From the IMG/VR virus record IMGVR_UViG_3300017605_000212, positions 2,173 to 66,172 of that record: 64,000 nucleotides of DNA, one strand, 5' to 3'. Shown here piece by piece: positions 220 to 62,208 of the stretch; positions within the stretch are counted from its first letter, which is position 1; each line of letters begins with the position of its first letter. This stretch comes from a virus. Taxonomy: Duplodnaviria > Caudoviricetes. The translations under genes were made by a program, and so were the position numbers. The notes under the pieces are model-generated. The model did no database searches. It was not told the origin of the DNA and saw only the letters and a program-made list of their open reading frames with translations.

Positions 220-900
220 CTACTCCTTCGGTTCAGTTCTTGGCGTTGGAGGGTCAAGGTGTAGCGGCGCTGCGTCTCGCGCCCCTTCGGGCTCTGCTCG
301 TAGCGGCGTTGCGTCTCCCTGCCCTTCGCGGTTTTGCGGTATTTCTTCTGCCGCAACAGATGGAGCAATCGCTTGTTCGAGGACGATTTTTTCGTTGTTT
401 CCGAGGTTGATGCTGATAGTGATCTTTTCGCCGGTTCCAGCCTCAGCAGCACGTTCTCCAATGCCCGCAACCTTGGCGAATAGCTTGGCGGCTTCGACTG
501 CTTTGTTGAGGTCTTCATCTTTGGACTGCATCCGGGCCCCGAGCGTGGGTAGCGCCTCTTCCAAGGCAACAGCGGCCTTGAGCCTCACCCTCTCCGGGGT
601 GTTCGTAGCGGCTTCCCACTCGATTACCGATGCCTCTAGTGTGCGGCGAAAGTAAGGCATTACCTCGATAGACGCAAACTGAGACTGTGTCAACTTGTAG
701 GCTTTGAGGATCGTGGCCTTGTTCTGCATGTCGTACGCGAGTTCGCGTGCCAGCTTGACGATCTGGTTCTCTGTCAGCGTTACCGGCTCGGTAACAACGG
801 GCAGGGCGGCGATTGGGTTGGTGTGCAACGGCTCTACCGTGCAGACGCCCAGTTCAAGCGGGGCGAAGCACACGTCACAGCGGGCAGTAAGGTCGGTCAT
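220..900 (-). CDS. terS: Putative terminase small subunit
   Basis: 226 aa, helical, with a C-terminal ITISINLG beta-strand typical of TerS; divergent from the portal; same strand as the terL fragment at the far end. Confidence 0.55.
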   Translation of the reverse strand: MTDLTARCDVCFAPLELGVCTVEPLHTNPIAALPVVTEPVTLTENQIVKLARELAYDMQNKATILKAYKLTQSQFASIEVMPYFRRTLEASVIEWEAATNTPERVRLKAAVALEEALPTLGARMQSKDEDLNKAVEAAKLFAKVAGIGERAAEAGTGEKITISINLGNNEKIVLEQAIAPSVAAEEIPQNREGQGDATPLRAEPEGARDAAPLHLDPPTPRTEPKE

Positions 901-934
901 AGGGGGCCTCCGTGGCTGGGATACGCGCTAGTCG

Positions 935-949
935 TTAATTACTCCTTAG
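935..949. promoter_or_regulatory. CtrA-like box (TTAA-N7-TTAG) in the divergent terS/portal intergenic region
   Basis: TTAATTACTCCTTAG, one mismatch to TTAA-N7-TTAA. Confidence 0.4.
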
Positions 950-996
950 CATGTTCCGATTACGGTGCGGCTGTCACACTATCCACCGGGACGCAC

Positions 997-3315
997 ATGG
1001 CTGACACACTAAGACAATCCGGCGTACTACAGGTCATTCCCCCGGCGCAGTTGGAGGCTCAGCTTCAGAAGCGGGCGGACGACGCCGCCGCAGCCGCTGC
1101 CCCGAAGCCCCCTGACATTACGCCCCTCGCTGGGTACATTCGTACACAATTTGAGATAATGCGAAACCACAGAAACACGCAGGCCGGGTGGTCGAACCGC
1201 CTGATCGGCGCGTTGCGGGTGTTCAACGGGCAATATGACCCGACCAAAATCCAAGAAATCCAGAAGATGGGCGGCAGCGAGGTGTTTGCCCGCCTGATCG
1301 CCCAGAAATGCCGCGCCGCCTCTTCGCTGCTGCGGGACATTTACCTCGGGCAAGATCGCCCGTGGGCCCTCAAGCCGCCTACGTCCCCGACCATTCCGCC
1401 TGACGTGATGCAGAACATCGACGTTCTGTTGCAGCACGAGCATACGATGGTGTCGCAGTCCCAAGGCGGGACGCCGCCCTCTGTTTCCGACGCCAAAAAG
1501 CGCCGCGACGCCCTTATGAGGAGCGCCACCGATGCCGCCAAGAAGAAATCCGCTGCCCAGTGCCGCATCAGTGAAGACAAGATCGAAGACATACTACGCC
1601 AAGGTGGGTACTATCATGCTCTTGCCGAGTTCCTTGTGGACCTCCCCATATTCGTCTTCGGATGTATCAAGGGCCCTGTCGTTAAGATTGTGCCAGAGGT
1701 GCAATGGCCACCCGGTGGTGGTCAGCCTAATGTCGTCCAATCGCCTCGTCTTACGTGGAACCGCGTCTCGCCATTCGACATTTGGATGACCCCGGGCGTT
1801 GCCGATATTGAAAACGCCGACGTTATCGAGAAAATGCGCCTCACCCGCGCCGAACTGAACGACCTGCTGGACCTCCCGGGATACAACACCGACGAAATCC
1901 GCGCTGTTCTTGACGAATACGGGCGGGGTGGCCTCTACGACAACTGGGATACCACGGACGCTGAGCGGGCCGTGCTGGAGAGCCGCGAGAACCCGGCGTG
2001 GAACCGGTCCGCAATGATTACAATGATGGAGTTCAACGGCAATGTTCAAGGCCGTACGCTCCAAGAATATGGCCTCGCGGTCCCCGACGAACTGCGGGAC
2101 TACTCCGTGCAGGCGTGGGTCATCGGGTCGCACGTTATCAAGTGTCAACTGAGCCCGAGCCCGCGCAAACGTCATCCGTATTTCATCACCTCCTTCGAGA
2201 AGGTCCCCGGCACCCCGGTCGGCAACGGCTTGACGGACCTCCTTGCCGACCTACAGGAAGTAGCCAATGCCACGTTGCGAAGTTTGGTCAACAATATCTC
2301 CATCGCCTCCGGTCCTCAGGTGGTCATCAACGACGACCGGCTCTCTCCCGAGGAAAATGGCGAGGATATGTACCCTTGGAAGCGCTGGCACACACGCAAC
2401 GACCCCGTTGGGTCCAATTCACAGGTGCCCATCAGCTTCTTCATGCCGACCTCGAACGCGCAGCAGCTTATCGCCGTCTTCCAAGAGTTCGTTTCCATAG
2501 CCGACGATGTGTCGGCCATACCGAAGTACGTAGGCGGACAAGCCAGTTCCGGTGGCGCAGGCCGTACAGCTTCGGGGCTGGCGATGCTCATGGGCAACGC
2601 CAGCAAAATTCTACAGACTGTCAGCGCGAACGTCGACCGCGATGTGGTCGAGCCGTCTCTGTTGCAGTTGACCGACATGATTATGCTCACGGACACGTCG
2701 GGCCTCCTCACGGGCGAAGAGAAAATTACGGTCCAAGGCGTCAACGTCGCCATCCAGCGCGAGACGCTGCGGCAGCGCCAGATCGAGTTCCTGCAAGCCA
2801 CGCAGAACCCGGTGGACAGCCATATCGTCGGGCTCAAGGGCCGCGCGGCCATGCTACGGTCGGTCGCCGCGACCCTCGGTATGGACGGCGAAGAAATCGT
2901 TCCGCCCGAGGAAGTCATCGAGCAGATGGACAAGGAGCAGAAGGACAAGGCGAAAAACGCGCAGCAGGGCGCTCTCGAACAGAAAGTCGAGGAGGGCATC
3001 CAAGCTGGCGTCAAGGCGGGCGTTTCCCGAATTTCGACCGAACTCACGGCGGGCGTCCTTGCCGAACGCGCCCAGTTGCCGGAAGGCAATCCGACGCACT
3101 TGGGCACACTCCCGATTGGAAACGGCAATGTGCCCCCGGCTGCACCGCACCCGCAGGGAAATACGCCGGGTACTGACTTGCGGCAGATGGCGGCTCACGC
3201 GCAAGGTACGAAGCCAAAACGGATGACCGGTGGCGGAATGTCGCCGCAGGTCGCCAATTTGACCAGTCGTTCGAGAGGACCGGGCGCTCGCCCGATTTCT
3301 CCCGGCGTCGGTTAA
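997..3315 (+). CDS. Portal (head-tail connector) protein
   Basis: About 772 aa from ATG 997; podovirus portal-like segments (RVSPFDIW, HPYFITSFEKVPGTPVGNGL, RTASGLAMLMGNA); first gene of the structural arm. Confidence 0.85.
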   Translation: MADTLRQSGVLQVIPPAQLEAQLQKRADDAAAAAAPKPPDITPLAGYIRTQFEIMRNHRNTQAGWSNRLIGALRVFNGQYDPTKIQEIQKMGGSEVFARLIAQKCRAASSLLRDIYLGQDRPWALKPPTSPTIPPDVMQNIDVLLQHEHTMVSQSQGGTPPSVSDAKKRRDALMRSATDAAKKKSAAQCRISEDKIEDILRQGGYYHALAEFLVDLPIFVFGCIKGPVVKIVPEVQWPPGGGQPNVVQSPRLTWNRVSPFDIWMTPGVADIENADVIEKMRLTRAELNDLLDLPGYNTDEIRAVLDEYGRGGLYDNWDTTDAERAVLESRENPAWNRSAMITMMEFNGNVQGRTLQEYGLAVPDELRDYSVQAWVIGSHVIKCQLSPSPRKRHPYFITSFEKVPGTPVGNGLTDLLADLQEVANATLRSLVNNISIASGPQVVINDDRLSPEENGEDMYPWKRWHTRNDPVGSNSQVPISFFMPTSNAQQLIAVFQEFVSIADDVSAIPKYVGGQASSGGAGRTASGLAMLMGNASKILQTVSANVDRDVVEPSLLQLTDMIMLTDTSGLLTGEEKITVQGVNVAIQRETLRQRQIEFLQATQNPVDSHIVGLKGRAAMLRSVAATLGMDGEEIVPPEEVIEQMDKEQKDKAKNAQQGALEQKVEEGIQAGVKAGVSRISTELTAGVLAERAQLPEGNPTHLGTLPIGNGNVPPAAPHPQGNTPGTDLRQMAAHAQGTKPKRMTGGGMSPQVANLTSRSRGPGARPISPGVG

Positions 3316-3370
3316 ACATTTAGCAACGAGTAGTGTGTAGACACAGAGGACCAGATAGGGGTTTCACGAT

Positions 3371-3811: not shown

Positions 3812-3814
3812 CCG

Positions 3815-7962: not shown

Positions 7963-9039
7963 ATGACGACCCAGCCCGCCCCGGCTGATCGGGTGGACCC
8001 CAATGTCCGTATGCCCGACAGCGTAAGAGCAGCCGCAGCCAAAGCCGCATCGTTTTACGAACAACCCCCAGCAGACGCGCCCGCAAGCGCGGAACCGGCA
8101 AAAGAACCGGCTGCTGAGGGCGTTACCGAACCGGTAACACCAGCGCAGCCGCCCGCCGCCGCTGCCCCTGAACCGGCGAAAGAACCGGCAGCAGCCCCCG
8201 CCGCCCCGGTCCAACCGGTTGAACCCCAACAGCCGGAACCCACAGAGCAGGATTGGCATCACCGCTTCCTGTCCATGCAGGGGCGCTACAACGCCTCACA
8301 GAAGACCATCGGCTCCTTGCAGGAGCAGATCGCCCAGATGGGCGACGAACTCATGCGTATGCAGGGTGCGCTTCAAGGCCAGCCGCCAACACAGGGCCAG
8401 CAGCCGGACACGCGGTATCAGAAGCTGACCGAGAAGGATGTGCAGGAGTACGGCACCGAGTTGATCGACGTGGTGAAGCGGGCCGCAGCCGAGGTTGTTG
8501 CTCCTGAGTTGGAAAGCGTCAAGGCCGAAAATGCGGAGTTGAAACGGGAGGTTGCCTATACTGCCCGCGAGCGCCTGTTGCAGCATCTGGACACCGCGCT
8601 GCCCGAGTGGCGCACCATCAACAAGGACCAGCGTTTCCTCCAGTGGCTCAATTTACCAAATGTTTACACTGGGGTGATAAGAAAACAGATGTTGAACCAA
8701 GCCTATCAAGCGGCTCATGCCCCTAGGGTGCTTGCGTTCTTCAAGGACTTCCTCTCAGAGGAACGTGCCACGGGTCATAGCACAACCCCGACGCAGCCAG
8801 CGGCCCCAGCGGCCCCTCGCACAGCGGCGGTCCAGTTGGAAACGCTTGCAGCCCCCGGCAAAGCTCGACCGGCCTCAGGTAACACTGACGCGCCCGCCGA
8901 CAAACCAGTATTCACTCGTGCCCAGATTGCGGCGTTCTACGCGGACGTTCGCGCCCAGCGATATGCTGGACGTGACGCCGAGAAGAACCGCCTCGAACAG
9001 GAGATTTTCGCGGCGCAGCGAGAAGGGCGTGTACGTTAA
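7963..9039 (+). CDS. Capsid scaffolding protein
   Basis: Pro/Ala-rich N-terminus, coiled coil, C-terminal EQEIFAAQREGRV; directly upstream of the MCP; AGGAG RBS. Confidence 0.75.
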   Translation: MTTQPAPADRVDPNVRMPDSVRAAAAKAASFYEQPPADAPASAEPAKEPAAEGVTEPVTPAQPPAAAAPEPAKEPAAAPAAPVQPVEPQQPEPTEQDWHHRFLSMQGRYNASQKTIGSLQEQIAQMGDELMRMQGALQGQPPTQGQQPDTRYQKLTEKDVQEYGTELIDVVKRAAAEVVAPELESVKAENAELKREVAYTARERLLQHLDTALPEWRTINKDQRFLQWLNLPNVYTGVIRKQMLNQAYQAAHAPRVLAFFKDFLSEERATGHSTTPTQPAAPAAPRTAAVQLETLAAPGKARPASGNTDAPADKPVFTRAQIAAFYADVRAQRYAGRDAEKNRLEQEIFAAQREGRVR

Positions 9040-13096: not shown

Positions 13097-13225
13097 ATGC
13101 CGCAGCCAGTCGGACCCACCGGACCGTTTATTGTTACCGAACCGGTAACATTTGTGGTTCATGAAGATAGGGAACACACATACTTTTACGTTCGCGCTGA
13201 TGACCCAAGCGACGACGAGGACTAA
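13097..13225 (+). CDS. 42-aa small ORF ([19 protein letters not shown]...DDED)
   Basis: Fills the gap between neighbours exactly (2 nt each side); below the ORF-track cutoff; carries one palindrome copy. Confidence 0.6.
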
Positions 13226-50075: not shown

Positions 50076-50794
50076 TAGAGAGCCAGTGTCAATGATTGCG
50101 CCCGTATTTCCACGCCGCTCTTGTGCGTGAACTTGCGGGTACTGATTTCCAGCTTCATGCCAGCCTTAGCATCATATGTCTTGTCTGGCAATAGCAGGGC
50201 ACTGGCCACCGTTGCTTGCGTCTCCCGTATCAACTCCAGCATGGGACCGATAGGTTGCTTGGGAACAACATAACGCACAGGCTCCCCGCCTTGCAGTTCC
50301 TCATGGTCAGGAGCCAACGCTCCCATCGTAGGCCAGTAATGGCGTACCGCCCCAGCCGTACAGTGGGTGTCCAGCCAGCGCATCGTCTCCAACACGCACT
50401 GGAATTGGTCGTGGATAGCCTTGACGTGATCCACAAGGTCAACCAGTGGCTTCGCCTGCTGGTGGTTAATCTCCAGCATGGTGTCCGCCGCAGACAGCAT
50501 CTTGAGGTGATCCTCGTAGTCGATGGTCAGCGTTACGTCGTCTGTCAGGTCATAGGACACCCACTTGTCGTAAAGCGGGGTAAGCCCATAGGCAGCTTTC
50601 AGCCGCTCGATAGTGTCTGCCGCGAACAGCCAAGGGATAACGTCCTTAGCCGTATAGCGGAAGTCCATCGTCGCGTAGATCACGCGCTTGCACAGCTTCT
50701 CGATGTTCTGCTCCGCAGTTGAGAAGTGCCCACCTAGGACACTGTTGCTGCTTTGCAGATGGTTGAACTTGCGGCGTCGTTTAGGCCATGCCAT
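50075..50794 (-). CDS. Hypothetical protein
   Basis: GGAGG RBS; coupled to the polymerase gene. Confidence 0.7.
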   Translation of the reverse strand: MAWPKRRRKFNHLQSSNSVLGGHFSTAEQNIEKLCKRVIYATMDFRYTAKDVIPWLFAADTIERLKAAYGLTPLYDKWVSYDLTDDVTLTIDYEDHLKMLSAADTMLEINHQQAKPLVDLVDHVKAIHDQFQCVLETMRWLDTHCTAGAVRHYWPTMGALAPDHEELQGGEPVRYVVPKQPIGPMLELIRETQATVASALLLPDKTYDAKAGMKLEISTRKFTHKSGVEIRAQSLTLAL

Positions 50795-50936
50795 TGTCGT
50801 CAGCCTCCATCTTCATTTTGAGTTCAAAGAATTTCTGGACTAGCGCCTCGTGGTCCCACGGCTTCTCCAGCCGCATGACTTGTCGGTGCGCCCAGATGTT
50901 ACCGGGCCGGTAACAGGGGTGGCGGAACTGTGACAT
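50781..50936 (-). CDS. 51-aa small ORF (MSQFRHPCYRPGNIW...)
   Basis: AGGAG RBS; below the track cutoff; contains a palindrome copy. Confidence 0.5.
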   Translation of the reverse strand: MSQFRHPCYRPGNIWAHRQVMRLEKPWDHEALVQKFFELKMKMEADDNGMA

Positions 50937-52254: not shown

Positions 52255-52398
52255 TAACGGCTCCAAATAGTCTGCCTGACCGACAAGTCTAGGCGCATTG
52301 GACTTGTTTCACCTCCGCACCGGAATAGTACGGGCCTCTTGTCGGGGCTCTGTAAAGGGCCAAACGCGCCTGTTACCGGACCGGTAACAGGCGCAATA

Positions 52399-53766
52399 TC
52401 ACTCTCGGTTAATACGTTTGATGCGGACCACCTCACCCCACGGAAATTCCTTGTCAGTGGTGGAGGCCCAGATCACCGGGAAAGCCGGTTCTTTCTTCGG
52501 GAAGGGCTCGCAGTATCCATCGGTGAAACCCATGAACACGTCGGGCACGTCCGTCTGCTCTTTCAGCCAGTCAAAGGCCAGCATGACGCGGGTACCCCCG
52601 CCGCCGCCCACGCCACGAGACTTGATGGTCTGCAAGTCGCTTGCGTCGGCCACCTCATCCTCGTGGCATACCTTGGTGTCACCCCACAGGATCGTGATGC
52701 GCTTGGGCCGCACGTCCTCGATGATACCGGCAACCTCGGCAAGGCAACGCTCTAACTCGCCCTTGCCCATGCTGCCAGAGGTGTCACCCCACAGCACAAT
52801 CCAGCCCGCACCGAAGCCGCTCCTGCCGGGGCAGTACATGTCCCGCACGATGAAGCGCCTGTCAGGCTTGCGCCAATTATAGCTGCCAGAGCCGACCTTG
52901 CGGGCCAACTCCGTGCGGATATGCTCGGTCCAATCAACCTCAGGCTCCAGTATCTCTTGGAACATGCGTTGAAGGGCACCGCCCATCTTACCTTGTGACC
53001 GCTTGTTCTCCAACTCACGGGCCACAGCTACCTCAACCTGCCACTGTTGCGAATTGCGTTGCTGCGCCTGCTGAGCGTTGCCCGTGCTCTTACCGGGCGA
53101 CAGGACCATATCAAAGCCCTGCGGGTTGCTGCCGCCGCCACCGCTACCGCCCTTATTCTGGGGACGTTTCTTGAAAATCTTCTCGTAGATTTCCCACGCC
53201 CCTTCCTTGCCTTCCTTGCAGATCGCGGGGTCATAGATACCGACCTGCTTGCCGTTCAGGTCCTTCGGCATCGAGCCCATGCGACTTGCCACCAGCAGCG
53301 CGTTGATGCGGTGGTCCATCGCGGTCTGGTACTGGTCATTGTCGAAGGGCAGCGGGCCCTTGGTAGGGCATGGCACCGTGCCGCTCTTGGTCAGGCGGTG
53401 CATGGTCCGCACGTCGTCGTAGACGTTGTGTTGTATCTCGTGGATCAGGATGAACACCCGCTCTTTGAGCCCGAACTCAAAGAACGTATCGGGGTTGAGC
53501 AAGATGTTCTGGCCATCGGTAGCCGCTATAGGCACTAGGCGGGTGAACACCGCCATGTGCCCATGTTTGTTGTCGTGATTTACGAGCAGCTTGTAGAAGA
53601 TATGCCGGAAGCCCGGTGCCATCCACGCCATATAGGACATGGTGTCCGCCCAAAGCTGCTTCTGCTTGGGCGTCAAGTCCTCCGGTGTGATAGGGCCGGT
53701 CAGCTTGTCCAGTATATCTGCGATCTGCTCTGGCGTTGCGCCAGCAGGTATCGTGATCTGGGTCAT
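52399..53766 (-). CDS. DUF2201-type metallopeptidase-like plus VWA domain protein
   Basis: AATDG, HEIQH (HExxH), DTSGSM (MIDAS), GGGGT, FTDGY. Confidence 0.88.
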   Translation of the reverse strand: MTQITIPAGATPEQIADILDKLTGPITPEDLTPKQKQLWADTMSYMAWMAPGFRHIFYKLLVNHDNKHGHMAVFTRLVPIAATDGQNILLNPDTFFEFGLKERVFILIHEIQHNVYDDVRTMHRLTKSGTVPCPTKGPLPFDNDQYQTAMDHRINALLVASRMGSMPKDLNGKQVGIYDPAICKEGKEGAWEIYEKIFKKRPQNKGGSGGGGSNPQGFDMVLSPGKSTGNAQQAQQRNSQQWQVEVAVARELENKRSQGKMGGALQRMFQEILEPEVDWTEHIRTELARKVGSGSYNWRKPDRRFIVRDMYCPGRSGFGAGWIVLWGDTSGSMGKGELERCLAEVAGIIEDVRPKRITILWGDTKVCHEDEVADASDLQTIKSRGVGGGGGTRVMLAFDWLKEQTDVPDVFMGFTDGYCEPFPKKEPAFPVIWASTTDKEFPWGEVVRIKRINRE

Positions 53767-54068
53767 TTGTTATCCTTCATTGCGTCCAGCAGGTCTTGGC
53801 TGATAGCCGGGGCTTCGCTCGTATCCCCTGCCTCGGCCAACTCTGCATCGCCCTTGGCTACCACGTCCTCAAGGAACACAAAGTCCTCGTGTCCCGAGAA
53901 AAAGTCATCCGAGAATATGGCGATCTTGGGCTTGATGCCGTCAGCCAGTAGGGCCATGTTCGCAAACGCGCGAGTACCCAACTGCTGCATGATTTTCTTG
54001 GCAACCTCGTGCTTATCAAGGTCACCGAAGTCAACCGCTATCTCTAGCGTGTAGGTTCTCTGGGCCAT
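53763..54068 (-). CDS. Hypothetical protein between the AAA and VWA genes
   Basis: GGAGG RBS; ATGA coupling. Confidence 0.65.
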   Translation of the reverse strand: MAQRTYTLEIAVDFGDLDKHEVAKKIMQQLGTRAFANMALLADGIKPKIAIFSDDFFSGHEDFVFLEDVVAKGDAELAEAGDTSEAPAISQDLLDAMKDNK

Positions 54069-54191: not shown

Positions 54192-55310
54192 TCAGTTGCT
54201 CAGGCTCGCTATGAGCGACACAAGCTGGGCGTTCTTGTTCACCCAACTCTGCATCGCAGGCTCATTGATGAGCCCCTTGTAGTCCCTGCGGAGCAGGCTG
54301 CTCACGTAAGTCACAGCCATATCCTTCGGGAAGCGGTTCATATAGGTGATGCACGGGGCAAGGTCGGCCCTTTGCGTCCACCCAGCCAACTCATAGGCCA
54401 TCAGCATGAGCAGGTCTGGCCGGGTCGGCACTGGTGTACCGCTCGGATCAGACACCACCTCTGCGTAGCTCGGGAGTTGGGTGCGGAACTCGATATGACC
54501 CACTAGGGATTGTGTGGCGGGCATACCGATAGTACCAGCCAACCCCTCGATAGTGCGCGGGTCGGTCGGCACCTGTCCCTTGTTCATGTCGGCTTTGACC
54601 TGCAAGTAACGGTCAGCCGCCGTAAGAGTACGCGGGTTGCACCACGGGCCCTGCTCTTTGGGTTCGCTCTCGAACAGGAGGTCAGGATGCGTAGCCGCCC
54701 ATGCCTTGGTTACAGGCATGACCTGCCACTCTTTGCCTTGATAGCTGTACGGCTTGTCCGCAAAGTCCTCCAGCCATACGTTCACATCGCCCGTAACCTT
54801 GAGCAGAGTGCGACGGGCGATACAGAAGTCAAAGTCCTTCGTAACGCCGTAGCGGGAGCCCTTGTTGGTGAAGGCGATACGGATGCTGCCTTGCGGCAGA
54901 TACCACGGTGGGGTGCCACCGTTCAGGAAGATTTCCGCGATAGCCCGCTTCACATCGGCCTCGCCCTGCCCGTACTCCTCGATGATGAGCACGAATAGGT
55001 CGTACATATAGGCGGGCTTGCCCTCCGTACTGATGAACCACAGCGGGCAGGAAGGATCAGTCACCGTAATCATACGGCCACCAATCTCTCGCTCGCCCTT
55101 GAACTGATAGCCAATCAAGTCCGGTGGGGTCTGCGTAGCGGCGAAGATGATCCCCAACCCCACGGTCTTACCGGGATTGTCCAGCTTCGTCTGCTCGTAG
55201 ATACGGAAGCCCATCTGGGACTTGCCAAGGCCCGAAGGGCTCTCGACTAGCGATGAGTTGCCCGCTCTGGCGTTCGCCAGAACTTCCGTATAGCACTCAC
55301 GTAGGTTCAT
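54192..55310 (-). CDS. MoxR-like AAA+ ATPase
   Basis: Walker A SPSGLGKS, DLIGY, Walker B IIEE, NPRT sensor. Confidence 0.85.
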   Translation of the reverse strand: MNLRECYTEVLANARAGNSSLVESPSGLGKSQMGFRIYEQTKLDNPGKTVGLGIIFAATQTPPDLIGYQFKGEREIGGRMITVTDPSCPLWFISTEGKPAYMYDLFVLIIEEYGQGEADVKRAIAEIFLNGGTPPWYLPQGSIRIAFTNKGSRYGVTKDFDFCIARRTLLKVTGDVNVWLEDFADKPYSYQGKEWQVMPVTKAWAATHPDLLFESEPKEQGPWCNPRTLTAADRYLQVKADMNKGQVPTDPRTIEGLAGTIGMPATQSLVGHIEFRTQLPSYAEVVSDPSGTPVPTRPDLLMLMAYELAGWTQRADLAPCITYMNRFPKDMAVTYVSSLLRRDYKGLINEPAMQSWVNKNAQLVSLIASLSN

Positions 55311-55348
55311 TGGTCACCTCTTGGTTGCGTGTTACCGGGCGGTAACAT

Positions 55349-55716: not shown

Positions 55717-56466
55717 TTACGCGACCTTTGCCTTCGTGGTCGCGGCCTTGGCGGTAGGCAGCGGAGCCTTCGCCTTGGCAATTTCGGCCAACCGTAGGGT
55801 CAGCTTCTCGACGGCTTCCTTCACAAGGCTCGATGCGTCCTGCGCCGTGCCCTGCGATGCCTTGCCGCTAATCAGGTTCTGTAGCGACTTGCGAGCAGCC
55901 TGAATGATTTCCTCGCCAGTCGCCATGTCACCCTTGGCCTTGAAGATGAACTGCTTGAGTTCGTCCTCGGGGATGAGTTGGTCCCGCTTGACCTGCTCAC
56001 GGGCAAACCGGAGCAGCGTATTGCTCGGGTCGTCCAACTGCTTCGCAAGCTGCGGCTGAGCCTTCGCCTTGCCGCGCATGGTCAACAGCGTGTTAACCGT
56101 CGCCAGAGGCTCGCCCTGTCCGCCCTTGGTCCAGCCGCCAAGCTGTGTAACCTTGCGGACACAGGCAGCAGCCTTGCGGGCGTTACCAGCCTTGTGATCG
56201 TAGATCACAGCGCCGGTCTGGCCCTTCACCCAACGCTCGGTCAGCATGTGGGCATCGTCGATGCCAACCCCATGCTTATCGCGGGTCAGGTCGATAGCAC
56301 CGTGATACCCGCCCTCGATACAGCGGTAGAGGAACTTGGACCAACTGTCCTTGCCCTTGCCGTTGTCAGCACCGAGCGTCTCGGCTTCCTTGAGCAGGCT
56401 ATCAAGCGTGATGCGGTTAACCTGCGCCTGCTGGGCCGGTTGACCTGCGGTCGATTGATTGCTCAT
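55717..56466 (-). CDS. Hypothetical early protein (249 aa, basic tail)
   Basis: GGAGG RBS; strong codon bias. Confidence 0.75.
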   Translation of the reverse strand: MSNQSTAGQPAQQAQVNRITLDSLLKEAETLGADNGKGKDSWSKFLYRCIEGGYHGAIDLTRDKHGVGIDDAHMLTERWVKGQTGAVIYDHKAGNARKAAACVRKVTQLGGWTKGGQGEPLATVNTLLTMRGKAKAQPQLAKQLDDPSNTLLRFAREQVKRDQLIPEDELKQFIFKAKGDMATGEEIIQAARKSLQNLISGKASQGTAQDASSLVKEAVEKLTLRLAEIAKAKAPLPTAKAATTKAKVA

Positions 56467-56539
56467 GCAATCCTCCGTTGTTGTCGCGTTACCGGTCGGT
56501 AACACGCTCCTATCGCGTCGAACAAAAACAGCATTACCG

Positions 56540-58924
56540 CTACAGCAGCGGGTTGCTGCGGAACCGTTTGTTGGGGAGAATTACCCCAATGAAAGGCCCT
56601 CCCTTGACCGTCACAGGCTCGCGATACGCCTGCCACAGTTCGCGGAACCCCAGCACTTTGCTGTTGTCCCGGCAATGGTTACGCCGCGCCCCACGGTATG
56701 TCGCGTGGTTGCGCGGTGTCTTAGCCGTGCGCCCAAAGTTGCGCTTTACCCCGATCTTCATATGTCACCCTCATGTCTGGTGTCGTAGAAGGATACCTCT
56801 GCGACAAACCCAAAGGCTCCCACCATAAACGATATGTTGGGACTGTGATCGCCCCTAAGGCGACAAGTCAAGTCGATGATGAACATAGTACCGTGCCACC
56901 GTTGGGCAGCGAACTCTAGCACCTTGTTACCGTTAGCGAAGGTGATGCTCTTGCAGATCATGGGTGGTGCCCTATAGCTGTATCGACCCACACATCGGAG
57001 CCGAAGTCTTTCTGTCGAAAGCAGTATTCAGTGTAGGCAGCGGTGGCACGTTTCACGCCTACCGTTGCCTGCCGGTCGTGCAAGGTATACTTTTGCAACG
57101 CCTGCCCCAGCAGATGGATGAGGTCCCTATCTGTCATCGCAACCTCTCGTTACGTAGGGCAGCGTTGTGGGCTATCCGTATAGCCTCGGACAGTTCCTGC
57201 CGATAGCGTTTCACGATGCGGGCACGGCTCTCCCGCTCGTACAGGCTTCCGTACAGGGTTGCCTGTGCAAGCGTTCGCTCGGCATGGTCAAGGCGAGCCT
57301 GCGCCGTCAGCACCCCATGCTCCCAACTCAGGAAGCTGGTAGGGTGGCGGCTCTGCCCGCCTGCGTTGTAGGTCTTAGCCTTGGTCATCGTTGTATCTCG
57401 GGTCTGGCCAGTTGAGGTAGCTGGCTCCCTGTGGATGGGAGAACTCGCGCTCAAGGGCCACGTTAGCAAGCACCTGCTGGCAGGCCTTCTCGTGCATGAT
57501 GCTCTTGGAGAGGTCCGATGCGCTCTTGAGCAGCCCCAAGGCTGTATCCACCGCTGTCACGATGTTGCGGAAGGTAGTGGGTTGGGCGTTCATGGTCAGG
57601 ATAGCCCGCGCTATGATAGCCACCTGATCTGCCTGCTCTTTGCGGACAGCCAGCACAGGCGATGCGGTATCGCTCATGACAGGCTCTCCCATATCTGCGC
57701 GGCCAATGCGGCCAGCACGATAACGCAGGCGCTGCCTACCATCGCTACCATAACGGTGGCGGCAATGGCGTCATGCCATCTGGTCAGGTTGTCCATGTTC
57801 TCGATCCTTTGCGGTGGTCTGGAAACACGGAAAGCCCTACCCCCGTCGCTGGGGTAGGGCCTTCGATCTTGCCAGAACTAGGCGTTTTGTATGTCCCGCC
57901 TGTAGTCATTCATGGATTGCAGCGTGGTCATGCAGTTGCCGATAGCGAGCCCCACGCTCGTGGCATCGCCTATCGCCTCCACTATTTCCTCATCACTCCA
58001 GCACTCAACGAGAATGTCCCAGCCATCCTGCTCGTAGTTCTCGGTGGCGTACTGCCTTACAGCGGTCACTAGGTTAGTCACGCTCATGGTAGCCTCCTGT
58101 GGTGGTTCAACCTTGTTACCGGCTCGGTAACGCCTACTGCCACATTTGCAGACGTTGTTGGCGTAATCTGGCCGCTTTCAAGGCATTTTCGAGGTTTTGC
58201 ATCTTGGTTAAGGCTCGCCACTCGCCGGTGATAGGCTTCGACTTGGCAGGCGGCGGGCTCGGGTTCTTTAGGCGCACCGTATGGGGCGCAGACACGGCTT
58301 CTCGCTCCAGCCGCAGATTGTCCTGTAGGACTTTCTGCAACTGGAGCGCGATAGCCTCCATGCGTTCCTCAAGCGTGGGCATCAGGACCTCTGGACGATC
58401 TTGAGCAGGTGCCCGTTGTCCGTGACCTGCCCAGACTTGACCATCGCACCGATGATGGTCTGGTAGGTATCGAGGCTGAGCCCAAGGGGCATCAGCATCG
58501 CGTAGAGGTGGCCGCTCGGTACGCCAGCAGCGCCAGCCTCTCGGATGGCCTCCACGATGGTGCCGAGTACGAGTACAACAGCTTGTTTCTGGGTCATGTG
58601 ACCCTCCTTTCGGTTGGTGGTTAGGTGCGAGGCTTCCACTCGCTGCGGCACGGGTCGAACCCGTTGCCTCTGGAGGCCGCGAGCCTCCCTGTGTTACCGG
58701 CGCGGTAACTTGCGGTCGCCCCACCGCTCAAGCCCGAGCAGCGGGGCAGGATCAGCGTAGTAGTCGCCGTCCATGTGACAGCGGCTGCGGTAGCTTCCGT
58801 CGCCCAGTTCAGCAAAGGTGGCGAGGTCGAGTACGTGGTGCTGCTGGGAGTTGACCGGAGCCTGTATCTCATCGAAGCTGTGGGCTCGGTCGGGGTGGAT
58901 AAGGGGCTTCTTGTACTGGAGCAT
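56540..58924 (-). CDS. Cluster of small early genes (56540-56761, 56758-56991, 57134-57388, 57375-57692, 57878-58087, 58134-58382, 58382-58597, 58694-58924)
   Basis: Same-strand packing, several with strong RBS; functions unknown. Confidence 0.5.
57831..57860 (-). terminator. Hairpin terminator candidate
   Basis: GCCCTACCCC/GGGGTAGGGC stem followed by TTT on the - strand, downstream of the stop at 57878. Confidence 0.55.
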
Positions 58925-60278: not shown

Positions 60279-60713
60279 ATGTACTACCTTGTTACCGGAG
60301 CGGTAACGCTGGCTCTCCTCGCGGGGGTCATGAGCGCAGGCGCGAAGACATATGGCGAAAGCCAGTATGGCGGTGCAGACGAGAGCGAGTACTACGCTAC
60401 GCTTATGCAACCTGATTACCCTTCTACTTCGTGTTGCGGCGAGGCCGACGTTTACTATGCCGACGAGCAGGAAGAGGGGCCGGACGGCACCGTGATCGCG
60501 ATCATCACCGACACGCGCCCCGACGAGCGGACCCTCCCCGACGGCAGGGTCATCAAGCGGCAGCATATTCCGGTGGGTACTAAGGTGTTGGTCCCCAAGT
60601 ACAAAATGCGGAAACACTACACGCCCAACCCCACCGGCCACACCATCATCTTTTTGGCGGGGACCGAGGGGGGTTGGATCGTGTACTGCTACGAGCCTAT
60701 GCCGCTACTTTAG
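60279..60713 (+). CDS. Exported Cys-containing hypothetical protein
   Basis: Signal-like N-terminus; SCCGEAD ... NPTGHTIIF ... VYCYEP. Confidence 0.65.
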   Translation: MYYLVTGAVTLALLAGVMSAGAKTYGESQYGGADESEYYATLMQPDYPSTSCCGEADVYYADEQEEGPDGTVIAIITDTRPDERTLPDGRVIKRQHIPVGTKVLVPKYKMRKHYTPNPTGHTIIFLAGTEGGWIVYCYEPMPLL

Positions 60714-61485: not shown

Positions 61486-61550
61486 TCCTAATACTCCTTG
61501 TGTTGAGCGGTCCATAAGCAAGGCACCGCACATAAGAACGTCGGTGTATA

Positions 61551-61566
61551 GTAATAGTTTCTTAAC
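61551..61566. promoter_or_regulatory. CtrA-type box GTAA-N7-TTAAC
   Basis: GTAATAGTTTCTTAAC in a divergent intergenic region. Confidence 0.5.
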
Positions 61567-61748
61567 GTCTAGGATTATTTCATATGGTGCGATCACGTTT
61601 TCGTGATCGAGAGTGTGCAAAAAGGAACAGTCGGCCACAAAAAAGACAAATTGGTTCCGTAGGCTGTAAAACTGTAGGGGGGCGATCCTGCCCCAGTTTC
61701 TCTTCATTGCTGACGTGCTTAACCCTCAAGCAAGGAGTTGCTGGCATT

Positions 61749-62084
61749 ATGCCCGACATGGCCAAGAAACAAAAAATCCTCACCAACGTGATCTGCCTCG
61801 GCAAGAAAACGCCGCTTACCAAGGCTGAGGCCGAGAAGCTGGCCGAGCCAGCGACACCCTTAGGCCTTACCCCCAAGAGAGGCTGGGAGACGGCGGTGGC
61901 CATGCTCCAGCAGACAATCGACGACATTGAGAGTGGCCGGATGAAGCCGCAGGATATTTTCATCGTCGCCACCAACGCGCCCTCGGAGAGCGACCAGTAT
62001 GCGGTCCACATCCGGCGCTTCAACTTGACCCCGCTCGAACTGATCGGGCGCATGTCTCACGTCCTGCGCGACCTCGACCCGTAA
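61749..62084 (+). CDS. Hypothetical protein
   Basis: AAGGAG upstream; typical codon usage. Confidence 0.65.
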   Translation: MPDMAKKQKILTNVICLGKKTPLTKAEAEKLAEPATPLGLTPKRGWETAVAMLQQTIDDIESGRMKPQDIFIVATNAPSESDQYAVHIRRFNLTPLELIGRMSHVLRDLDP

Positions 62085-62208
62085 GTTACTCCTTAATCTA
62101 ACTGTGTTTCTGTGAGGCGGGCCCGGTCCCCGGCAGGCTCGTCTGGAAAACGGCGTGCCAATGGGGGTGCTGTGCGGGCTGGGCCCACTTGTTACCGGCC
62201 CGGTAACA

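What the first reader, a model, noticed from the sequence alone, without database searches (positions are those of the whole stretch)
779..62207. Genome-wide system of 24 palindromes with identical arms (GTTACCG-N2/3-CGGTAAC) written through coding sequence
Seen: 24 perfect copies (coordinates in the repeat feature). A rough chance expectation for 14 fixed bases at about 60% GC is about 0.0005 per 64 kb. About 17 copies lie inside genes, including terS, scaffold, endolysin, two ejection proteins, SSB, SNF2 helicase, RHH, the DUF5664-like gene and DNA polymerase. They are translated in three frames (VTEPVT/VTAPVT/VTGSVT, LPxGN, YRxGN/RYRPVT) on both strands, so selection acts on the nucleic acid, not the peptide. 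Every copy has an extra G on at least one arm (GTTACCGG-N1/2-CGGTAAC). Density is uneven: 16 copies in 38.6-62.2 kb versus 8 in 0-35 kb. Inference: this is a phage-wide cis-element network. Options are (a) repressor roadblock sites like mycobacteriophage stoperators, (b) parS/matS-like organising or ejection-pacing sites, (c) decoys that titrate a host regulator, or (d) ssDNA hairpins. I do not recognise it as a described element.
Basis: partly seen in the sequence, partly recalled or inferred. Interest (0 to 1): 0.93.

Follow-up and report, generated by a model that had tools for sequence, protein, structure and literature searches.

The report
Phage-wide co-evolving palindrome network
An uncultured soil phage carries 24 perfect copies of a 16-17-base palindrome, and its relatives, including a cultured Rhizobium phage, each carry their own version of it, so it is a conserved signal written into the DNA whose reader and purpose are still unknown.

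Summary
There are 24 exact GTTACCG-N2/3-CGGTAAC copies, none in 100 shuffles, no one-mismatch copies, and all 24 have the extra inner G/C.

It is not peculiar to this phage. Relatives carry 7-48 copies of a (G)TTAC...GTAA(C) palindrome. The inner bases differ by lineage, always on both arms:
- TTACCG in most relatives
- TTACCT in cultured Rhizobium phage RHph_TM3_14A
- TTACGG, TTACAG and TTACTG/T in others

Sites are kept at orthologous places and are enriched at gene junctions. Inside genes they are held by codon choice. The motif is not a repeat in the 301 alphaproteobacterial genomes searched.

Three or more independent lineages lack the palindromes. Each also lacks a five-gene block built around a MoxR-type AAA+ ATPase and a VWA/DUF2201 protein, which are homologues of N4 gp24/gp25. 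N4-like phages have that gene pair without palindromes.

I favour short hairpins read in transcripts (0.35) over duplex operators (0.30).

The closest known case is the unexplained 17-bp dyad repeat of Cluster O mycobacteriophages. This scan has noted dispersed phage palindromes before, on other DNA.

The parts
779..795 (.). Palindrome copy 1 (spacer GCT). It lies in codons 36-41 of the called 226-aa ORF 220-900 (-), or just upstream of that gene's true start.
   Evidence: An orthologous site lies near the start of this terS-like gene in relatives. The PHROG match of the ORF begins at aa 39.
8122..8138 (.). Copy 2 (AAC), inside the 358-aa gene 7963-9039 (+) at aa 54, read as VTEPVT.
13133..13149 (.). 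Copy 3 (AAC), between genes 12441-13094 and 13228-14274. Only a weak 52-aa ORF call covers it.
17849..17865 (.). Copy 4 (AGC), inside the 329-aa gene 17264-18253 (+) at aa 196.
26979..26995 (.). Copy 5 (GCT), inside the 882-aa virion gene 25878-28526 (+) at aa 368, read as VTGSVT.
30152..30168 (.). Copy 6 (AGC), inside the 1956-aa gene 28532-34402 (+) at aa 541.
31259..31275 (.). Copy 7 (AGC), inside the 1956-aa gene at aa 910.
34372..34387 (.). Copy 8 (AC, 16-mer), in the last codons of the 1956-aa gene. It ends 12 nt before that gene's stop and 18 nt before the next start codon.
   Evidence: Relatives have a site at the same gene junction.
38627..38643 (.). Copy 9 (GCG), inside the 337-aa gene 38440-39453 (-) at aa 271, read as VTAPVT.
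39472..39488 (.). Copy 10 (GAC), intergenic. It lies 3 nt after the stop of the 134-aa gene and 18 nt before the start of the 337-aa gene.
   Evidence: The same junction carries a site in G011, G013, G001, G015 and G005.
41347..41362 (.). Copy 11 (CC, 16-mer), inside the SNF2 helicase gene 39892-41448 (-) at aa 30.
42033..42049 (.). Copy 12 (GCG), inside the 225-aa gene 41735-42412 (-) at aa 122.
44034..44050 (.). Copy 13 (GCT), intergenic, 23 nt before the start of gene 43624-44010 (-).
45684..45699 (.). Copy 14 (GT, 16-mer), near the end of the 178-aa gene 45653-46189 (-), 27 nt before the next start codon.
47541..47557 (.). Copy 15 (ATC), inside the 153-aa gene 47163-47624 (-) at aa 23. The gene matches PF18909.
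49149..49164 (.). Copy 16 (TC, 16-mer), inside the DNA polymerase gene 48180-50075 (-) at aa 305.
50898..50914 (.). Copy 17 (GGC), about 100 nt upstream of the 239-aa module gene. Only a weak 51-aa ORF call covers it.
52372..52388 (.). Copy 18 (GAC), intergenic, 11 nt after the stop of the VWA gene. It is the core of a longer palindrome with 13-bp arms, followed by T-rich sequence.
   Evidence: folded as ssDNA: -17.2 kcal/mol, z -5.9.
55331..55346 (.). Copy 19 (GG, 16-mer), intergenic. It lies 3 nt after a stop codon and 21 nt before the start of the ATPase gene.
56488..56503 (.). Copy 20 (GT, 16-mer), intergenic, 22 nt before the start of the 249-aa module gene.
58115..58131 (.). Copy 21 (GCT), intergenic. 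It lies 3 nt after a stop codon and 28 nt before the next start codon.
58693..58709 (.). Copy 22 (GCG). The TAA within one arm is the stop codon of the 85-aa gene 58694-58951 (-).
60291..60307 (.). Copy 23 (GAG), at codons 5-10 of the called 144-aa ORF 60279-60713 (+).
62191..62207 (.). Copy 24 (GCC), intergenic. It lies 67 nt before the CtrA-like regulator gene and 23 nt before a sigma-70-like -35 hexamer.
54192..55310 (-). MoxR-class AAA+ ATPase, 372 aa, a homologue of N4 gp24. Its presence tracks the palindromes across relatives.
   Evidence: phrog_1297. Walker A and B motifs seen. The model has pLDDT 87. Best fold matches are NorQ (Z 12.9) and CbbQ (Z 12.7) over residues 1-273. Found in 16 of 16 palindrome-bearing and 0 of 4 palindrome-lacking genomes. 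N4 gp24 matches relatives G007, RHph and G011.
52399..53766 (-). DUF2201_N (metallopeptidase-like) plus VWA-like protein, 455 aa, a homologue of N4 gp25. Its presence tracks the palindromes.
   Evidence: PF13203 and PF09967. Found in 16 of 16 versus 0 of 4 genomes. tblastn with N4 gp25 hits it at E 5.5e-12.
53763..54068 (-). Acidic 101-aa protein encoded between the ATPase and VWA genes. Part of the module.
   Evidence: No family in any library. Found in 15 of 16 versus 0 of 4 genomes.
55717..56466 (-). All-helical 249-aa protein encoded upstream of the ATPase. Part of the module.
   Evidence: Found in 15 of 16 versus 0 of 4 genomes. The model has pLDDT 84 and no fold match at E<=0.001.
50075..50794 (-). 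239-aa protein encoded just upstream of the DNA polymerase. A looser member of the module.
   Evidence: Found in 13 of 16 versus 0 of 4 genomes. No family and no PDB match.

Best explanation
What it is (high confidence, about 0.8). The 24 palindromes are this lineage's version of a family-wide cis-element. Its frame, (G)TTAC...GTAA(C), is invariant. Its inner bases and spacer length are fixed within a genome but differ between lineages, always on both arms. That pattern implies a sequence-specific reader that co-evolves with its sites. Selection acts on the nucleic acid. Sites sit at gene junctions where a spacer exists, just after a stop codon and 18-28 nt before the next start. Elsewhere they are written into genes in the least harmful reading frame.

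How it works (my favoured reading; the confidence figure below refers to this part). The element is read as a short hairpin of 6-7 bp stem and 2-6 nt loop in single-stranded nucleic acid, most likely the transcript. It acts as punctuation of the long polycistronic early, middle and late RNAs. A phage factor recognises the stem and sets RNA 3' ends, RNA stability, or access to the ribosome site that follows. Because the stem is a palindrome, genes on either strand give the same hairpin.

It is not identified. Genetically, the element depends on, or travels with, a five-gene block: a 249-aa protein, a MoxR-type AAA+ ATPase, a 101-aa protein, a DUF2201/VWA protein and a 239-aa protein.

Shown: sequence conservation, concerted change of both arms, site placement, and co-loss with the gene block.
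Inferred: hairpin formation in vivo, RNA as the level of action, any binding, and any effect on expression.
For: Sharpness. 24 perfect copies, 0 one-mismatch copies.

Family-wide, with both arms changing together.
- TTACCG-N3-CGGTAA occurs 12-19 times in G011, G013, G014, G001, G015 and G005.
- RHph_TM3_14A has 34 TTACC-N5/6-GGTAA.
- G325 uses TTACGG, G326 GTTACA(G), G323 TTACTG and G330 GTTACT.
- At one orthologous DNA-polymerase site the arms read TTACC/GGTAA, TTACT/AGTAA and TTACG/CGTAA in three lineages.

Selection on the DNA. YRYGK is written as a palindrome only in the TTACCG lineages.

Placement.
- 114 of 341 sites in 16 genomes are not inside a called CDS, against 27.6 expected. In G000 the figure is 7 of 24, against 6.7% non-coding (p 8e-4).
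- CDS sites use frames 146/33/48. The frame that reads TAA is used least.
- G000 junction copies lie 3-37 nt after a stop and 18-28 nt before a start.
- In RHph_TM3_14A one copy exactly fills the gap between the converging terL and gene 20. Another lies at the second convergent junction, and one lies 1 nt after the major capsid gene's stop.
- Sites downstream of the capsid gene recur in G011 and G013.

Hairpin rather than fixed dyad. Spacer length varies within genomes while the arms stay perfect: G000 18:6, RHph 26:8, and CACTAC-N1-3-GTAGTG in distant relatives.

Link to ribosome sites. In one lineage the 3' arm is the Shine-Dalgarno sequence itself (TACCTC-G-GAGGTA, 3-5 nt before ATG). In another the stem abuts GGAG, 10-12 nt before ATG.

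Folding. The 7-bp stem forms in RNA and DNA folds.

Link to the gene block.
- Genome counts, palindrome-bearing versus palindrome-lacking: ATPase 16 of 16 vs 0 of 4; VWA 16 of 16 vs 0 of 4; 101-aa protein 15 of 16 vs 0 of 4; 249-aa protein 15 of 16 vs 0 of 4; 239-aa protein 13 of 16 vs 0 of 4.
- The lacking genomes fall in at least 3 places of a 5-protein tree.
- G324 lacks the block and keeps 10 degenerate sites against 1.6 expected, which looks like erosion.
- 72 further loci with ATPase homologues hold 484 TTAC-N6-8-GTAA against 25 of a control pattern in 1.156 Mb. 50 of the 62 loci of 10 kb or more have 3 or more sites.
Against: - Two thirds of sites lie inside genes, some far from any junction, and several of these are kept at orthologous places: the polymerase, the SNF2 helicase, the primase and an internal virion protein. 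A junction-based RNA role does not explain them.
- Reading of a stem sequence is more typical of proteins that bind duplex DNA than of RNA binders.
- The hairpin is weak. The RNA centroid is about -8 kcal/mol, and the surrounding RNA folds no better than shuffles.
- In relatives the inner Y and R are more often non-complementary than expected: 64 mixed versus 29 complementary, with 46.5 expected (p 3e-4). There is therefore no selection for a longer stem.
- Only 1 of 24 copies looks like an intrinsic terminator, and none of the 16 terminator-like hits in 44-64 kb coincides with a copy.
- Orientation to transcription is not significant.
- No RNA data exist for this phage.
- MoxR/VWA pairs are known as protein chaperones, and no nucleic-acid-binding domain was found in the block.
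- N4, LIT1 and RHph_X3_15 carry gp24/gp25 homologues but have no enriched palindrome. The block is therefore not sufficient, and the link may be only co-inheritance.
- The association p value (2e-4, Fisher) is not corrected for phylogeny and rests on 3-4 loss events.
Confidence: 0.35

Rival explanations
1. Duplex operator network. The palindromes are binding sites on double-stranded DNA for a dimeric phage-encoded protein that acts across the whole genome as a roadblock, silencer or organiser. This is what was proposed for the Cluster O dyad repeats.
For: - Perfect dyad symmetry with invariant arms.
- In relatives each half-site reads TTACCGY independently, with a fixed N3 spacer in 12-19 copies per genome.
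- Both arms change together between lineages.
- Sites avoid each other. The G000 right arm has a gap CV of 0.36 (p 5e-5), and the minimum gap is larger than random in 9 of 12 relatives tested.
- In-gene sites are conserved away from junctions.
- The authors of PMC4351075 predict dimeric DNA-binding proteins for their very similar repeat (passages).
Against: - Spacer length varies by 1-2 bp among perfect-armed copies within one genome. Most dimeric binders do not tolerate this.
- No HTH, RHH or ParB-type protein tracks the motif.
- The one clear DNA-binding candidate, the CtrA-like winged-helix protein at 62274-62891, is also present in palindrome-lacking genomes, and its recognition helix does not vary with motif type.
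- Only 1 of the 12 copies in 44-64 kb lies near a sigma-70-like promoter.
Confidence: 0.3
2. Single-stranded DNA hairpins. The sites fold when the DNA is unwound and act as signals for lagging-strand priming, fork handling, recombination or packaging. A palindrome gives the same hairpin on whichever strand is exposed.
For: - Variable loop with an invariant stem.
- No orientation to transcription.
- Regular spacing of about 1.6 kb in the replication arm.
- Conserved sites inside replication genes.
- The phage encodes its own primase-helicase, DNA polymerase, SNF2 helicase and nucleases.
- The nuclease next to terL differs between palindrome-bearing and palindrome-lacking relatives: phrog_284 in 10-11 of 16 bearing genomes, phrog_403 in 4 of 4 lacking genomes and 0 of 16 bearing genomes.
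Against: - The primase-helicase, polymerase and helicase are all present in the palindrome-lacking relatives.
- Enrichment at gene junctions and next to ribosome sites is not predicted by this model.
- There is no evidence of nicks or ends. Only assembled contigs were available.
Confidence: 0.15
3. Host-factor site. The palindrome binds a host protein, such as a transcription factor or a nucleoid protein. The phage exploits or titrates that protein, and the motif differs between lineages because the hosts differ.
For: - The frame TTAC-N7-GTAA resembles the CtrA box TTAA-N7-TTAA.
- A few alphaproteobacteria carry paired TTACCG-NN-CGGTAA sites as probable TetR-family operators, so bacterial proteins can read this word.
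Against: - In 301 alphaproteobacterial genomes the motif occurs at most 3 times per genome, in 55 of 301 genomes, no more often than a control.
- Loss of the motif coincides with loss of phage genes in at least 3 lineages.
- Sister phages use different inner bases.
Confidence: 0.07
4. Selfish or neutral small palindrome. The element spreads by insertion or gene conversion, like Rickettsia palindromic elements or cyanobacterial HIP1, and has no function for the phage.
For: - Copies occur inside genes in a tolerated reading frame.
- Two copies in different virion genes share 15 nt of downstream flank but have an inverted spacer.
Against: - Sites are held at orthologous places across genomes whose five core proteins are only 54-78% identical and whose flanking DNA no longer aligns.
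- There are no decayed copies in G000.
- Copies are over-dispersed, not clustered.
- The element is 15-17 bp long and carries no coding capacity.
Confidence: 0.05

Closest known systems
17-bp dyad repeats of Cluster O mycobacteriophages (Corndog and relatives; Cresawn et al. 2015, PMC4351075; passages read)
   Same: - 7-bp inverted arms around a 3-bp spacer.
- More than 30 copies with invariant arms and a variable centre.
- Spread over the whole genome and denser in the non-structural arm.
- Part of the copies lie inside genes.
- No clear orientation to transcription.
- The phage is apparently lytic, and the function is unknown.
- My script recovers 31 copies in Corndog bases 20001-69777.
   Different: - The word differs: TGTTCGG-N3-CCGAACA versus GTTACCG-N2/3-CGGTAAC.
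- The host phylum and the phage family differ.
- About one third of the Cluster O copies lie in genes, against about two thirds here.
- Their spacer is a fixed 3 bp.
- Corndog's AAA ATPase gp96 shows no similarity to the ATPase here.
- No change of motif between lineages and no link to a gene block is described in the passages I read.
Stoperators of Cluster A mycobacteriophages (as described in the discussion of PMC4351075; further details recalled)
   Same: Dozens of copies of one short site are spread over a phage genome, many at gene junctions and some in genes. They are read by one phage protein.
   Different: - Stoperators are asymmetric, and all point one way relative to transcription.
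- They serve the immunity repressor of temperate phages.
- Here the sites are symmetric, orientation is not significant, and no repressor or integrase was found.
Start-associated sequences of Cluster K mycobacteriophages (named in PMC4351075; details recalled)
   Same: A conserved short word sits just upstream of many start codons. In two distant lineages here the palindrome abuts or contains the Shine-Dalgarno sequence.
   Different: SAS is not a palindrome and is tied to starts. Here most copies are not at starts.
Hairpin promoters of the phage N4 virion RNA polymerase (recalled, no call)
   Same: - A DNA hairpin with a 5-7 bp stem and a 3-nt loop is read in a sequence-specific way.
- The ATPase/VWA pair of this phage family is homologous to N4 gp24/gp25.
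   Different: - N4 has three such promoters, upstream of early genes, and they are oriented.
- tblastn finds no homologue of N4 RNAP1, RNAP2 or vRNAP in this family.
- N4, LIT1 and RHph_X3_15 show no enriched palindrome.
MoxR AAA+ / VWA chaperone pairs such as NorQ-NorD and CbbQ-CbbO (PDB titles)
   Same: The ATPase model matches NorQ (Z 12.9, rmsd 3.9 over 228 residues) and CbbQ (Z 12.7). Its gene lies next to a VWA-domain gene, as in those pairs.
   Different: - Known pairs remodel proteins, and none is linked to a DNA or RNA motif.
- The phage ATPase has an extra C-terminal region of about 100 helical residues with no fold match.
- The VWA protein carries a metallopeptidase-like DUF2201_N domain.

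Membership tests
Cluster O-type dispersed dyad repeats | Many copies (30 or more) of a perfect inverted repeat with invariant arms and a variable centre | tested here: met
   24 copies with perfect arms and 0 one-mismatch copies. Relatives have 7-48 copies.
Cluster O-type dispersed dyad repeats | Fixed geometry of 7-bp arm, 3-bp spacer, 7-bp arm | tested here: inconclusive
   18 of 24 copies have a 3-nt spacer and 6 of 24 a 2-nt spacer. The near relatives have a fixed N3 spacer.
Cluster O-type dispersed dyad repeats | The same word (TGTTCGG-N3-CCGAACA) or a related phage | tested here: not met
   The word differs. Corndog gp96 versus the ATPase here gives BLASTP E 2.5. The likeness is therefore in kind, not by descent.
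Cluster A stoperators | Asymmetric site with a single orientation relative to transcription | tested here: not met
   The arms are symmetric. The orientation classes of the spacer are not significant, for example CCA:TGG 34:22 (p 0.14). In G000 alone the split is 15:5 (counted; p about 0.04 by my own arithmetic).
Cluster A stoperators | Temperate phage with an immunity repressor that reads the sites | tested here: inconclusive
   No integrase or repressor family appeared among the roughly 45 proteins scanned. Many small proteins were not scanned.
Intrinsic (Rho-independent) terminators | G+C-rich stem followed by a T run | tested here: not met
   None of the 16 terminator-like hits in 44-64 kb overlaps a copy. 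Only copy 18 sits in a longer palindrome followed by T-rich sequence.
N4 vRNAP hairpin promoters | Hairpin with a 5-7 bp stem and a 3-nt loop | tested here: met
   A 7-bp stem with a 3-nt loop is predicted in both DNA and RNA folds. The family's geometry is recalled.
N4 vRNAP hairpin promoters | A virion RNA polymerase of the N4 gp50 type, and a few oriented copies upstream of early genes | tested here: not met
   tblastn with N4 gp50, gp15 and gp16 gives no hit in G000, G011, RHph, G007 or G012. The 24 copies lie all over the genome.
CtrA-box regulon (TTAA-N7-TTAA) | Read by a CtrA-type winged-helix protein whose presence or specificity tracks the sites | tested here: not met
   The phage's CtrA-like protein is present in all 4 palindrome-lacking genomes. 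Its recognition helix is nearly invariant across motif types.
Host genome-wide repeats (REP, HIP1-like) | The motif is abundant in the host chromosome | tested here: not met
   Among 301 alphaproteobacterial genomes the maximum is 3 copies, 55 genomes have at least 1, and a control pattern is similar. The host is unknown, so this test is indirect.
parS/ParB or KorB-type dispersed centromere/operator sites | A ParB- or KorB-family protein encoded by the element | tested here: inconclusive
   No ParB or KorB family appeared among the proteins scanned. Not every ORF was scanned.
MoxR AAA+ / VWA pairs | AAA+ fold of the MoxR class, encoded next to a VWA-domain protein | tested here: met
   NorQ Z 12.9 and CbbQ Z 12.7. 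PF09967 VWA-like domain at E 2.6e-18. The two genes are adjacent in all 16 genomes.

The most novel reading that the evidence does not exclude
The N4 gp24/gp25-like MoxR ATPase and VWA/metallopeptidase-like protein, together with their two or three small partner proteins, form the machine that reads or works on these hairpins. This would be the first nucleic-acid-linked role for a MoxR-VWA pair. It would also give a function to a conserved but unexplained phage gene pair, and it would explain why the sites erode wherever the block is lost.
Probability: 0.15. Interest if true: 0.85.

Novelty: new variant of a known kind. Interest (0 to 1): 0.72.

Why it matters
Dispersed perfect palindromes in lytic phage genomes have been in print since 2015 (Cluster O) without an explanation.

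This family offers three things that case did not:
- A natural series of lineages in which the word changed on both arms.
- Natural knock-outs: at least three lineages that lost the sites.
- A short list of five candidate genes that were lost together with the sites.

It also has a cultured member, Rhizobium phage RHph_TM3_14A on Rhizobium etli, with 34 sites. The question of what reads these palindromes and what they do can therefore be taken to the bench.

If the MoxR/VWA block is involved, the result would reach the N4-like phages, where gp24 and gp25 are conserved and unexplained.

Tried and rejected
1. First phyletic profile. It used TTACC...GGTAA as the only 'positive' class and found no associated gene. 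That class was wrong, because G323, G325, G326 and G330 carry variant palindromes. The profile was redone.

2. Rejected.

3. Decay of sites by nucleotide alignment between sister genomes. The flanks no longer align: only 1-3 of 20-22 sites were spanned per pair. Erosion could therefore only be shown by counts in G324.

4. KPP25, the nearest named Pseudomonas phage by polymerase, has no palindrome in its first 50 kb.

5. Structure and profile searches.
- The 249-aa protein has no fold match at E<=0.001, and its profile hits only coiled-coil-like chains.
- The 239-aa family has no PDB match and only 2 relatives in the big protein search, one of them itself.
- The ATPase C-terminal part got no Atlas hit and is not covered by fold matches.
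- Sequence searches of PDB with the ATPase and the VWA protein found nothing. The ATPase profile gave only marginal P-loop hits.

6. Rfam gave no family in the window.

7. Sequencing runs. No RNA holder was listed, and all 14 runs are DNA contigs.
- Laying 4 runs gave low-depth fragments.
- None of the 40 listed variant places falls in a palindrome, but 151 more were not shown, so nothing can be concluded.
- Contigs cannot show ends or nicks.

8. Literature.
- 'RHph_TM3_14A' gave 0 papers.
- GTTACC + GGTAAC + phage gave primer noise.
- DUF2201 gave 4 papers, none relevant.
- bacteriophage + palindromic + MoxR + von Willebrand gave 69 papers, 12 of them listed. The one I opened (PMC7911831, passages) only notes an AAA/VWA gene pair and avoidance of palindromes.
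- I found no paper linking a MoxR/VWA pair to a DNA motif in these searches. Supplements were not consulted.

9. Peptide-level explanation (a repeated VTxPVT linker). Rejected, because three frames and both strands are used, and relatives keep the peptide without the palindrome.

10. Not run: complex prediction of the ATPase with the VWA protein. It would pass through likeness to NorQ-NorD and would not bear on the question.

Full report
OBSERVATION.
The window is bases 2173-66172 of a 66,172-bp IMG/VR virus record with a 141-bp terminal repeat. The pattern GTTACCG-N2/3-CGGTAAC occurs 24 times, at exactly the coordinates given. It occurs 0 times in 100 dinucleotide-preserving shuffles and nowhere else in the record.

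The motif is unusually sharp. There are 24 perfect copies, none with one arm mismatch, and 4 with two mismatches. 24 of 31 GTTACCG words and 24 of 27 CGGTAAC words lie inside the palindromes. All 24 spacers start with G or end with C. 16 copies lie in 38.6-62.2 kb and 8 in 0-35 kb.

By my own gene calls, 17 copies lie inside a called CDS and 7 do not. Three reading frames are used on both strands. Several of its gene names could not be confirmed.

IT IS A FAMILY TRAIT.
Relatives found through the DNA polymerase (52-61% identity) and the capsid protein (69-90%) carry the same kind of element:
- TTACCG-N3-CGGTAA occurs 15, 16, 12, 19, 12 and 16 times in G011, G013, G014, G001, G015 and G005.
- It occurs 11, 7 and 6 times in G010, G007 and G009.
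- G322, G334 and G320 have 18, 19 and 13 copies.
- In these genomes the spacer is Y-N-R, so each half-site reads TTACCGY.
- The cultured Rhizobium phage RHph_TM3_14A (MN988472, polymerase 45% identical) has 34 TTACC-N5/6-GGTAA with the consensus gTTACCT-N4-AGGTAAc.

Genomes that I first scored as negative turned out to carry other versions. G325 has TTACGG...CCGTAA (18 copies). G326 has GTTACA(G)...TGTAAC, G323 has TTACTG...CAGTAA, and G330 has GTTACT...AGTAAC.

The frame TTAC...GTAA is constant. The next two bases are lineage-specific, and they always change on both arms.

The clearest case is one orthologous place in the polymerase, the peptide TTTTV(T/S)F. G005 and G334 have TTACC..GGTAA there, G323 has TTACT..AGTAA, and G325 has TTACG..CGTAA.

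At another place the peptide YRYGK is written TTACCGCTACGGTAA in seven TTACCG-type genomes. In G323 and G325 the same peptide uses other synonymous codons and makes no palindrome. Selection is therefore on the DNA or RNA word, not on the peptide.

WHERE THE SITES SIT.
Across 16 palindrome-bearing genomes, 114 of 341 TTAC-N6-8-GTAA sites are not inside a called CDS, against 27.6 expected. In G000 the figure is 7 of 24 against a non-coding fraction of 6.7% (p 8e-4).

Inside genes the frames are used 146:33:48. The rarest frame is the one that reads the arm's TAA as a stop. It occurs only with even-length spacers or at gene ends.

G000 junction copies lie 3-37 nt after the upstream stop and 18-28 nt before the next start, just ahead of the ribosome site.

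In RHph_TM3_14A, using the depositors' annotation:
- One copy exactly fills the 16-nt gap between the converging terL and gene 20.
- One lies at the other convergent junction.
- One lies 1 nt after the capsid gene's stop.

Many places are shared between genomes: near the start of the terS-like gene, after the capsid gene, between the 134-aa and 337-aa genes (six genomes including G000), in the SNF2 helicase, the primase-helicase and the polymerase, and at the junction after the giant virion gene. Yet the flanking DNA no longer aligns.

Copies avoid each other. In the G000 right arm the 16 copies have a gap CV of 0.36 (p 5e-5; the region was chosen after looking at the data). The smallest gap is larger than random at p<0.05 in 9 of the 12 relatives tested.

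Orientation relative to transcription is not significant.

In relatives the inner Y and R are non-complementary more often than expected: 64 versus 29, with 46.5 expected (p 3e-4). The palindrome is therefore not being lengthened by selection.

NOT A HOST REPEAT.
The host is unknown. The nearest cultured phages infect Rhizobium, and the phage encodes a CtrA-like winged-helix protein.

In 301 alphaproteobacterial genomes TTACCG-N2/3-CGGTAA occurs at most 3 times. It is present in 55 of 301 genomes, no more often than a reversed control pattern.

The few paired bacterial copies lie between a TetR-family regulator gene and an NmrA-like gene, so they are probably ordinary operators.

WHAT TRACKS THE SITES.
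Four relatives lack the element:
- G012: 3 TTAC-N6-8-GTAA sites.
- G328: 0 sites.
- G327: 5 sites. All three are near the 1.8-1.9 expected.
- G324: 10 degenerate copies against 1.6 expected, mostly with one arm spoiled.

I clustered all called proteins of 20 genomes. I also ran an iterative profile search with every G000 protein. Five G000 genes are present in most or all of the 16 bearing genomes and in none of the 4 lacking ones:
- ATPase 54192-55310: 16 of 16.
- DUF2201/VWA protein 52399-53766: 16 of 16.
- 101-aa protein: 15 of 16.
- 249-aa protein: 15 of 16.
- 239-aa protein: 13 of 16.

They form one block with a conserved gene order.

The reverse pattern also exists. An RNase H-fold exonuclease with a zinc ribbon (phrog_403), encoded between the terS-like gene and terL, is found in 4 of 4 lacking and 0 of 16 bearing genomes.

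In a FastTree of five concatenated core proteins the lacking genomes fall in at least three places:
- G012 and G328 lie with G013 in a clade with support 0.999. The inner order of that clade is unresolved (support 0.17).
- G324 lies with G009 (0.998).
- G327 lies alone.

So there were at least three co-losses. The Fisher p of 2e-4 is not corrected for phylogeny.

I then searched IMG/VR with the ATPase profile. 72 loci (1.156 Mb, down to 26% identity) hold 484 TTAC-N6-8-GTAA sites against 25 of a control palindrome. 50 of the 62 loci of 10 kb or more have 3 or more sites, and 66 of 72 also encode the VWA protein.

The most distant loci have palindromes of their own: CACTAC-N1-3-GTAGTG (10-14 copies per 15-20 kb), TACTAC-NN-GTAGTA, TGCTAC-N-GTAGCA, TACTCC-N-GGAGTA and TACCTC-G-GAGGTA.

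In the last of these the 3' arm is the Shine-Dalgarno sequence, 3-5 nt before the ATG. In the CACTAC group the stem abuts GGAG, 10-12 nt before the ATG.

WHAT THE BLOCK IS.
The ATPase model (pLDDT 87) is a MoxR-class AAA+ protein over residues 1-273. Its best matches are NorQ (Z 12.9) and CbbQ (Z 12.7). The last 100 residues or so are helical and have no match.

Its partner carries DUF2201_N (metallopeptidase-like) and a VWA-like domain.

Both are homologues of phage N4 gp24 and gp25. RefSeq and PHROG 1314 call gp25 an 'HNH endonuclease', which the domains do not support.

The other three proteins have no family and no fold match.

The main caveat is that N4, LIT1 and RHph_X3_15 have the gp24/gp25 pair but no enriched palindrome. 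My method does recover 31 copies in the Corndog control. No N4-type RNA polymerase is found in this family. The block is therefore at most necessary, not sufficient, and the link may be co-inheritance of one variable genome region.

It is present in all four lacking genomes, and its recognition helix does not change with motif type.

HOW IT MOST LIKELY WORKS.
A sequence-specific, co-evolving reader is required by two facts: the arms are invariant within each genome, and both arms switch together between genomes. I put this at about 0.8.

For a hairpin:
- Perfect-armed copies differ in spacer length within one genome: G000 18:6, RHph 26:8, and 1-3 nt in the CACTAC group.
- A palindromic stem gives the same hairpin from either strand.
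- Copies sit right after stops, at convergent junctions, after the capsid gene, and next to or on ribosome sites.
- The 7-bp stem forms in RNA and DNA folds.

For a duplex site:
- The half-site logic holds, with a fixed N3 spacer in most relatives.
- In-gene copies are conserved far from junctions.
- Copies are over-dispersed.
- Sequence reading of a stem is typical of DNA binders.

Against a classical terminator: only copy 18 has a long stem plus a T run.

My figures are:
- RNA-level hairpin punctuation: 0.35
- Duplex operator network: 0.30
- ssDNA hairpin signals: 0.15
- Host factor: 0.07
- Selfish element: 0.05
- Something else: the remainder

COMPARISON AND NOVELTY.
The nearest thing in print is the Cluster O repeat 5'-TGTTCGG-N3-CCGAACA. 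It has 34 copies in Corndog, with invariant arms. It is denser towards the non-structural end, and about one third of copies lie in genes. It has no meaningful orientation and no known function, and its authors predict a dimeric DNA-binding protein (PMC4351075, passages). This is the same kind of thing, with another word in an unrelated phage.

Stoperators differ because they are asymmetric and oriented and belong to temperate phages. Start-associated sequences differ because they are not palindromes. N4 hairpin promoters differ because they are few and oriented and need a vRNAP. See the membership tests.

This scan has reported dispersed palindromes in other uncultured phages before (e1-5883777, e1-3292500). 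I did not test those.

New here:
- The family-wide series of motif versions.
- The both-arm changes at orthologous sites.
- The natural losses.
- The five-gene correlate.

I file the finding as a new variant of a known, unexplained kind.

Noticed in passing
window 3371-4294, 11631-12428 and 13228-16602; also G012 bases 280-3560 (L127): Six paralogous genes, probably fibre genes, carry 9-bp-periodic collagen-like (Gly-X-Y) repeats. These dominate the list of repeated 9-11-mers in G000, G012 and G009.
   Followed up: partly
window 47163-47624 and 47833-48183: A protein with the N-terminal domain of dATP/dGTP diphosphohydrolases (PF18909) is encoded next to a DUF4406 / nucleoside 2-deoxyribosyltransferase-like protein, beside the DNA polymerase. 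This could mean nucleotide-pool editing or DNA base modification.
   Followed up: no
window 46186-46731: An Rv2179c-like 3'-5' exoribonuclease (PF16473, E 1e-38) is present in only 4 of the 16 palindrome-bearing genomes.
   Followed up: no
G012 17690-18442 (L127) and its counterparts in G324, G327 and G328; G000 record 1286-2389 (L404): The gene between the terS-like gene and terL differs by class. The 4 palindrome-lacking genomes have an RNase H-fold exonuclease with a zinc ribbon (phrog_403). 10-11 of the 16 bearing genomes have a 367-aa phrog_284 exonuclease there.
   Followed up: partly
L280 3037-3074, L282 3064-3101 and similar places in G020, G149 and G232: Several alphaproteobacteria carry two TTACCG-NN-CGGTAA palindromes 10-36 bp apart. 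In L280 they lie between a TetR-family regulator gene and an NmrA-like NAD(P)H-binding gene. In L282 the flanking gene opposite the NmrA-like gene matched no family. They are probably TetR-type operators.
   Followed up: partly
N4 record NC_008720, gp25 (11164-12306); PHROG 1314: N4 gp25 and its PHROG are labelled 'HNH endonuclease'. The homologous protein here has DUF2201_N and VWA-like domains and no HNH domain, so the label looks like a carried-over annotation error.
   Followed up: partly
window 26979-27010 and 30152-30183: Two copies in different virion genes share the next 15 nt (agaggacYtgtcggc, peptide VTxxVTEDLSA). Their 3-nt spacers are reverse complements of each other (GCT versus AGC), as if the centre had been flipped.
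   Followed up: no
window 50918-51399: One contig of run X1 joins 50918 to 51399, skipping 480 nt. The joint starts 4 nt after palindrome copy 17. Its depth is about 4, and it was not checked further.
   Followed up: no
window 59100-59530: This AT-rich region between the leftward and rightward early genes holds four of the seven sigma-70-like promoter hits in 44-64 kb, on both strands.
   Followed up: no
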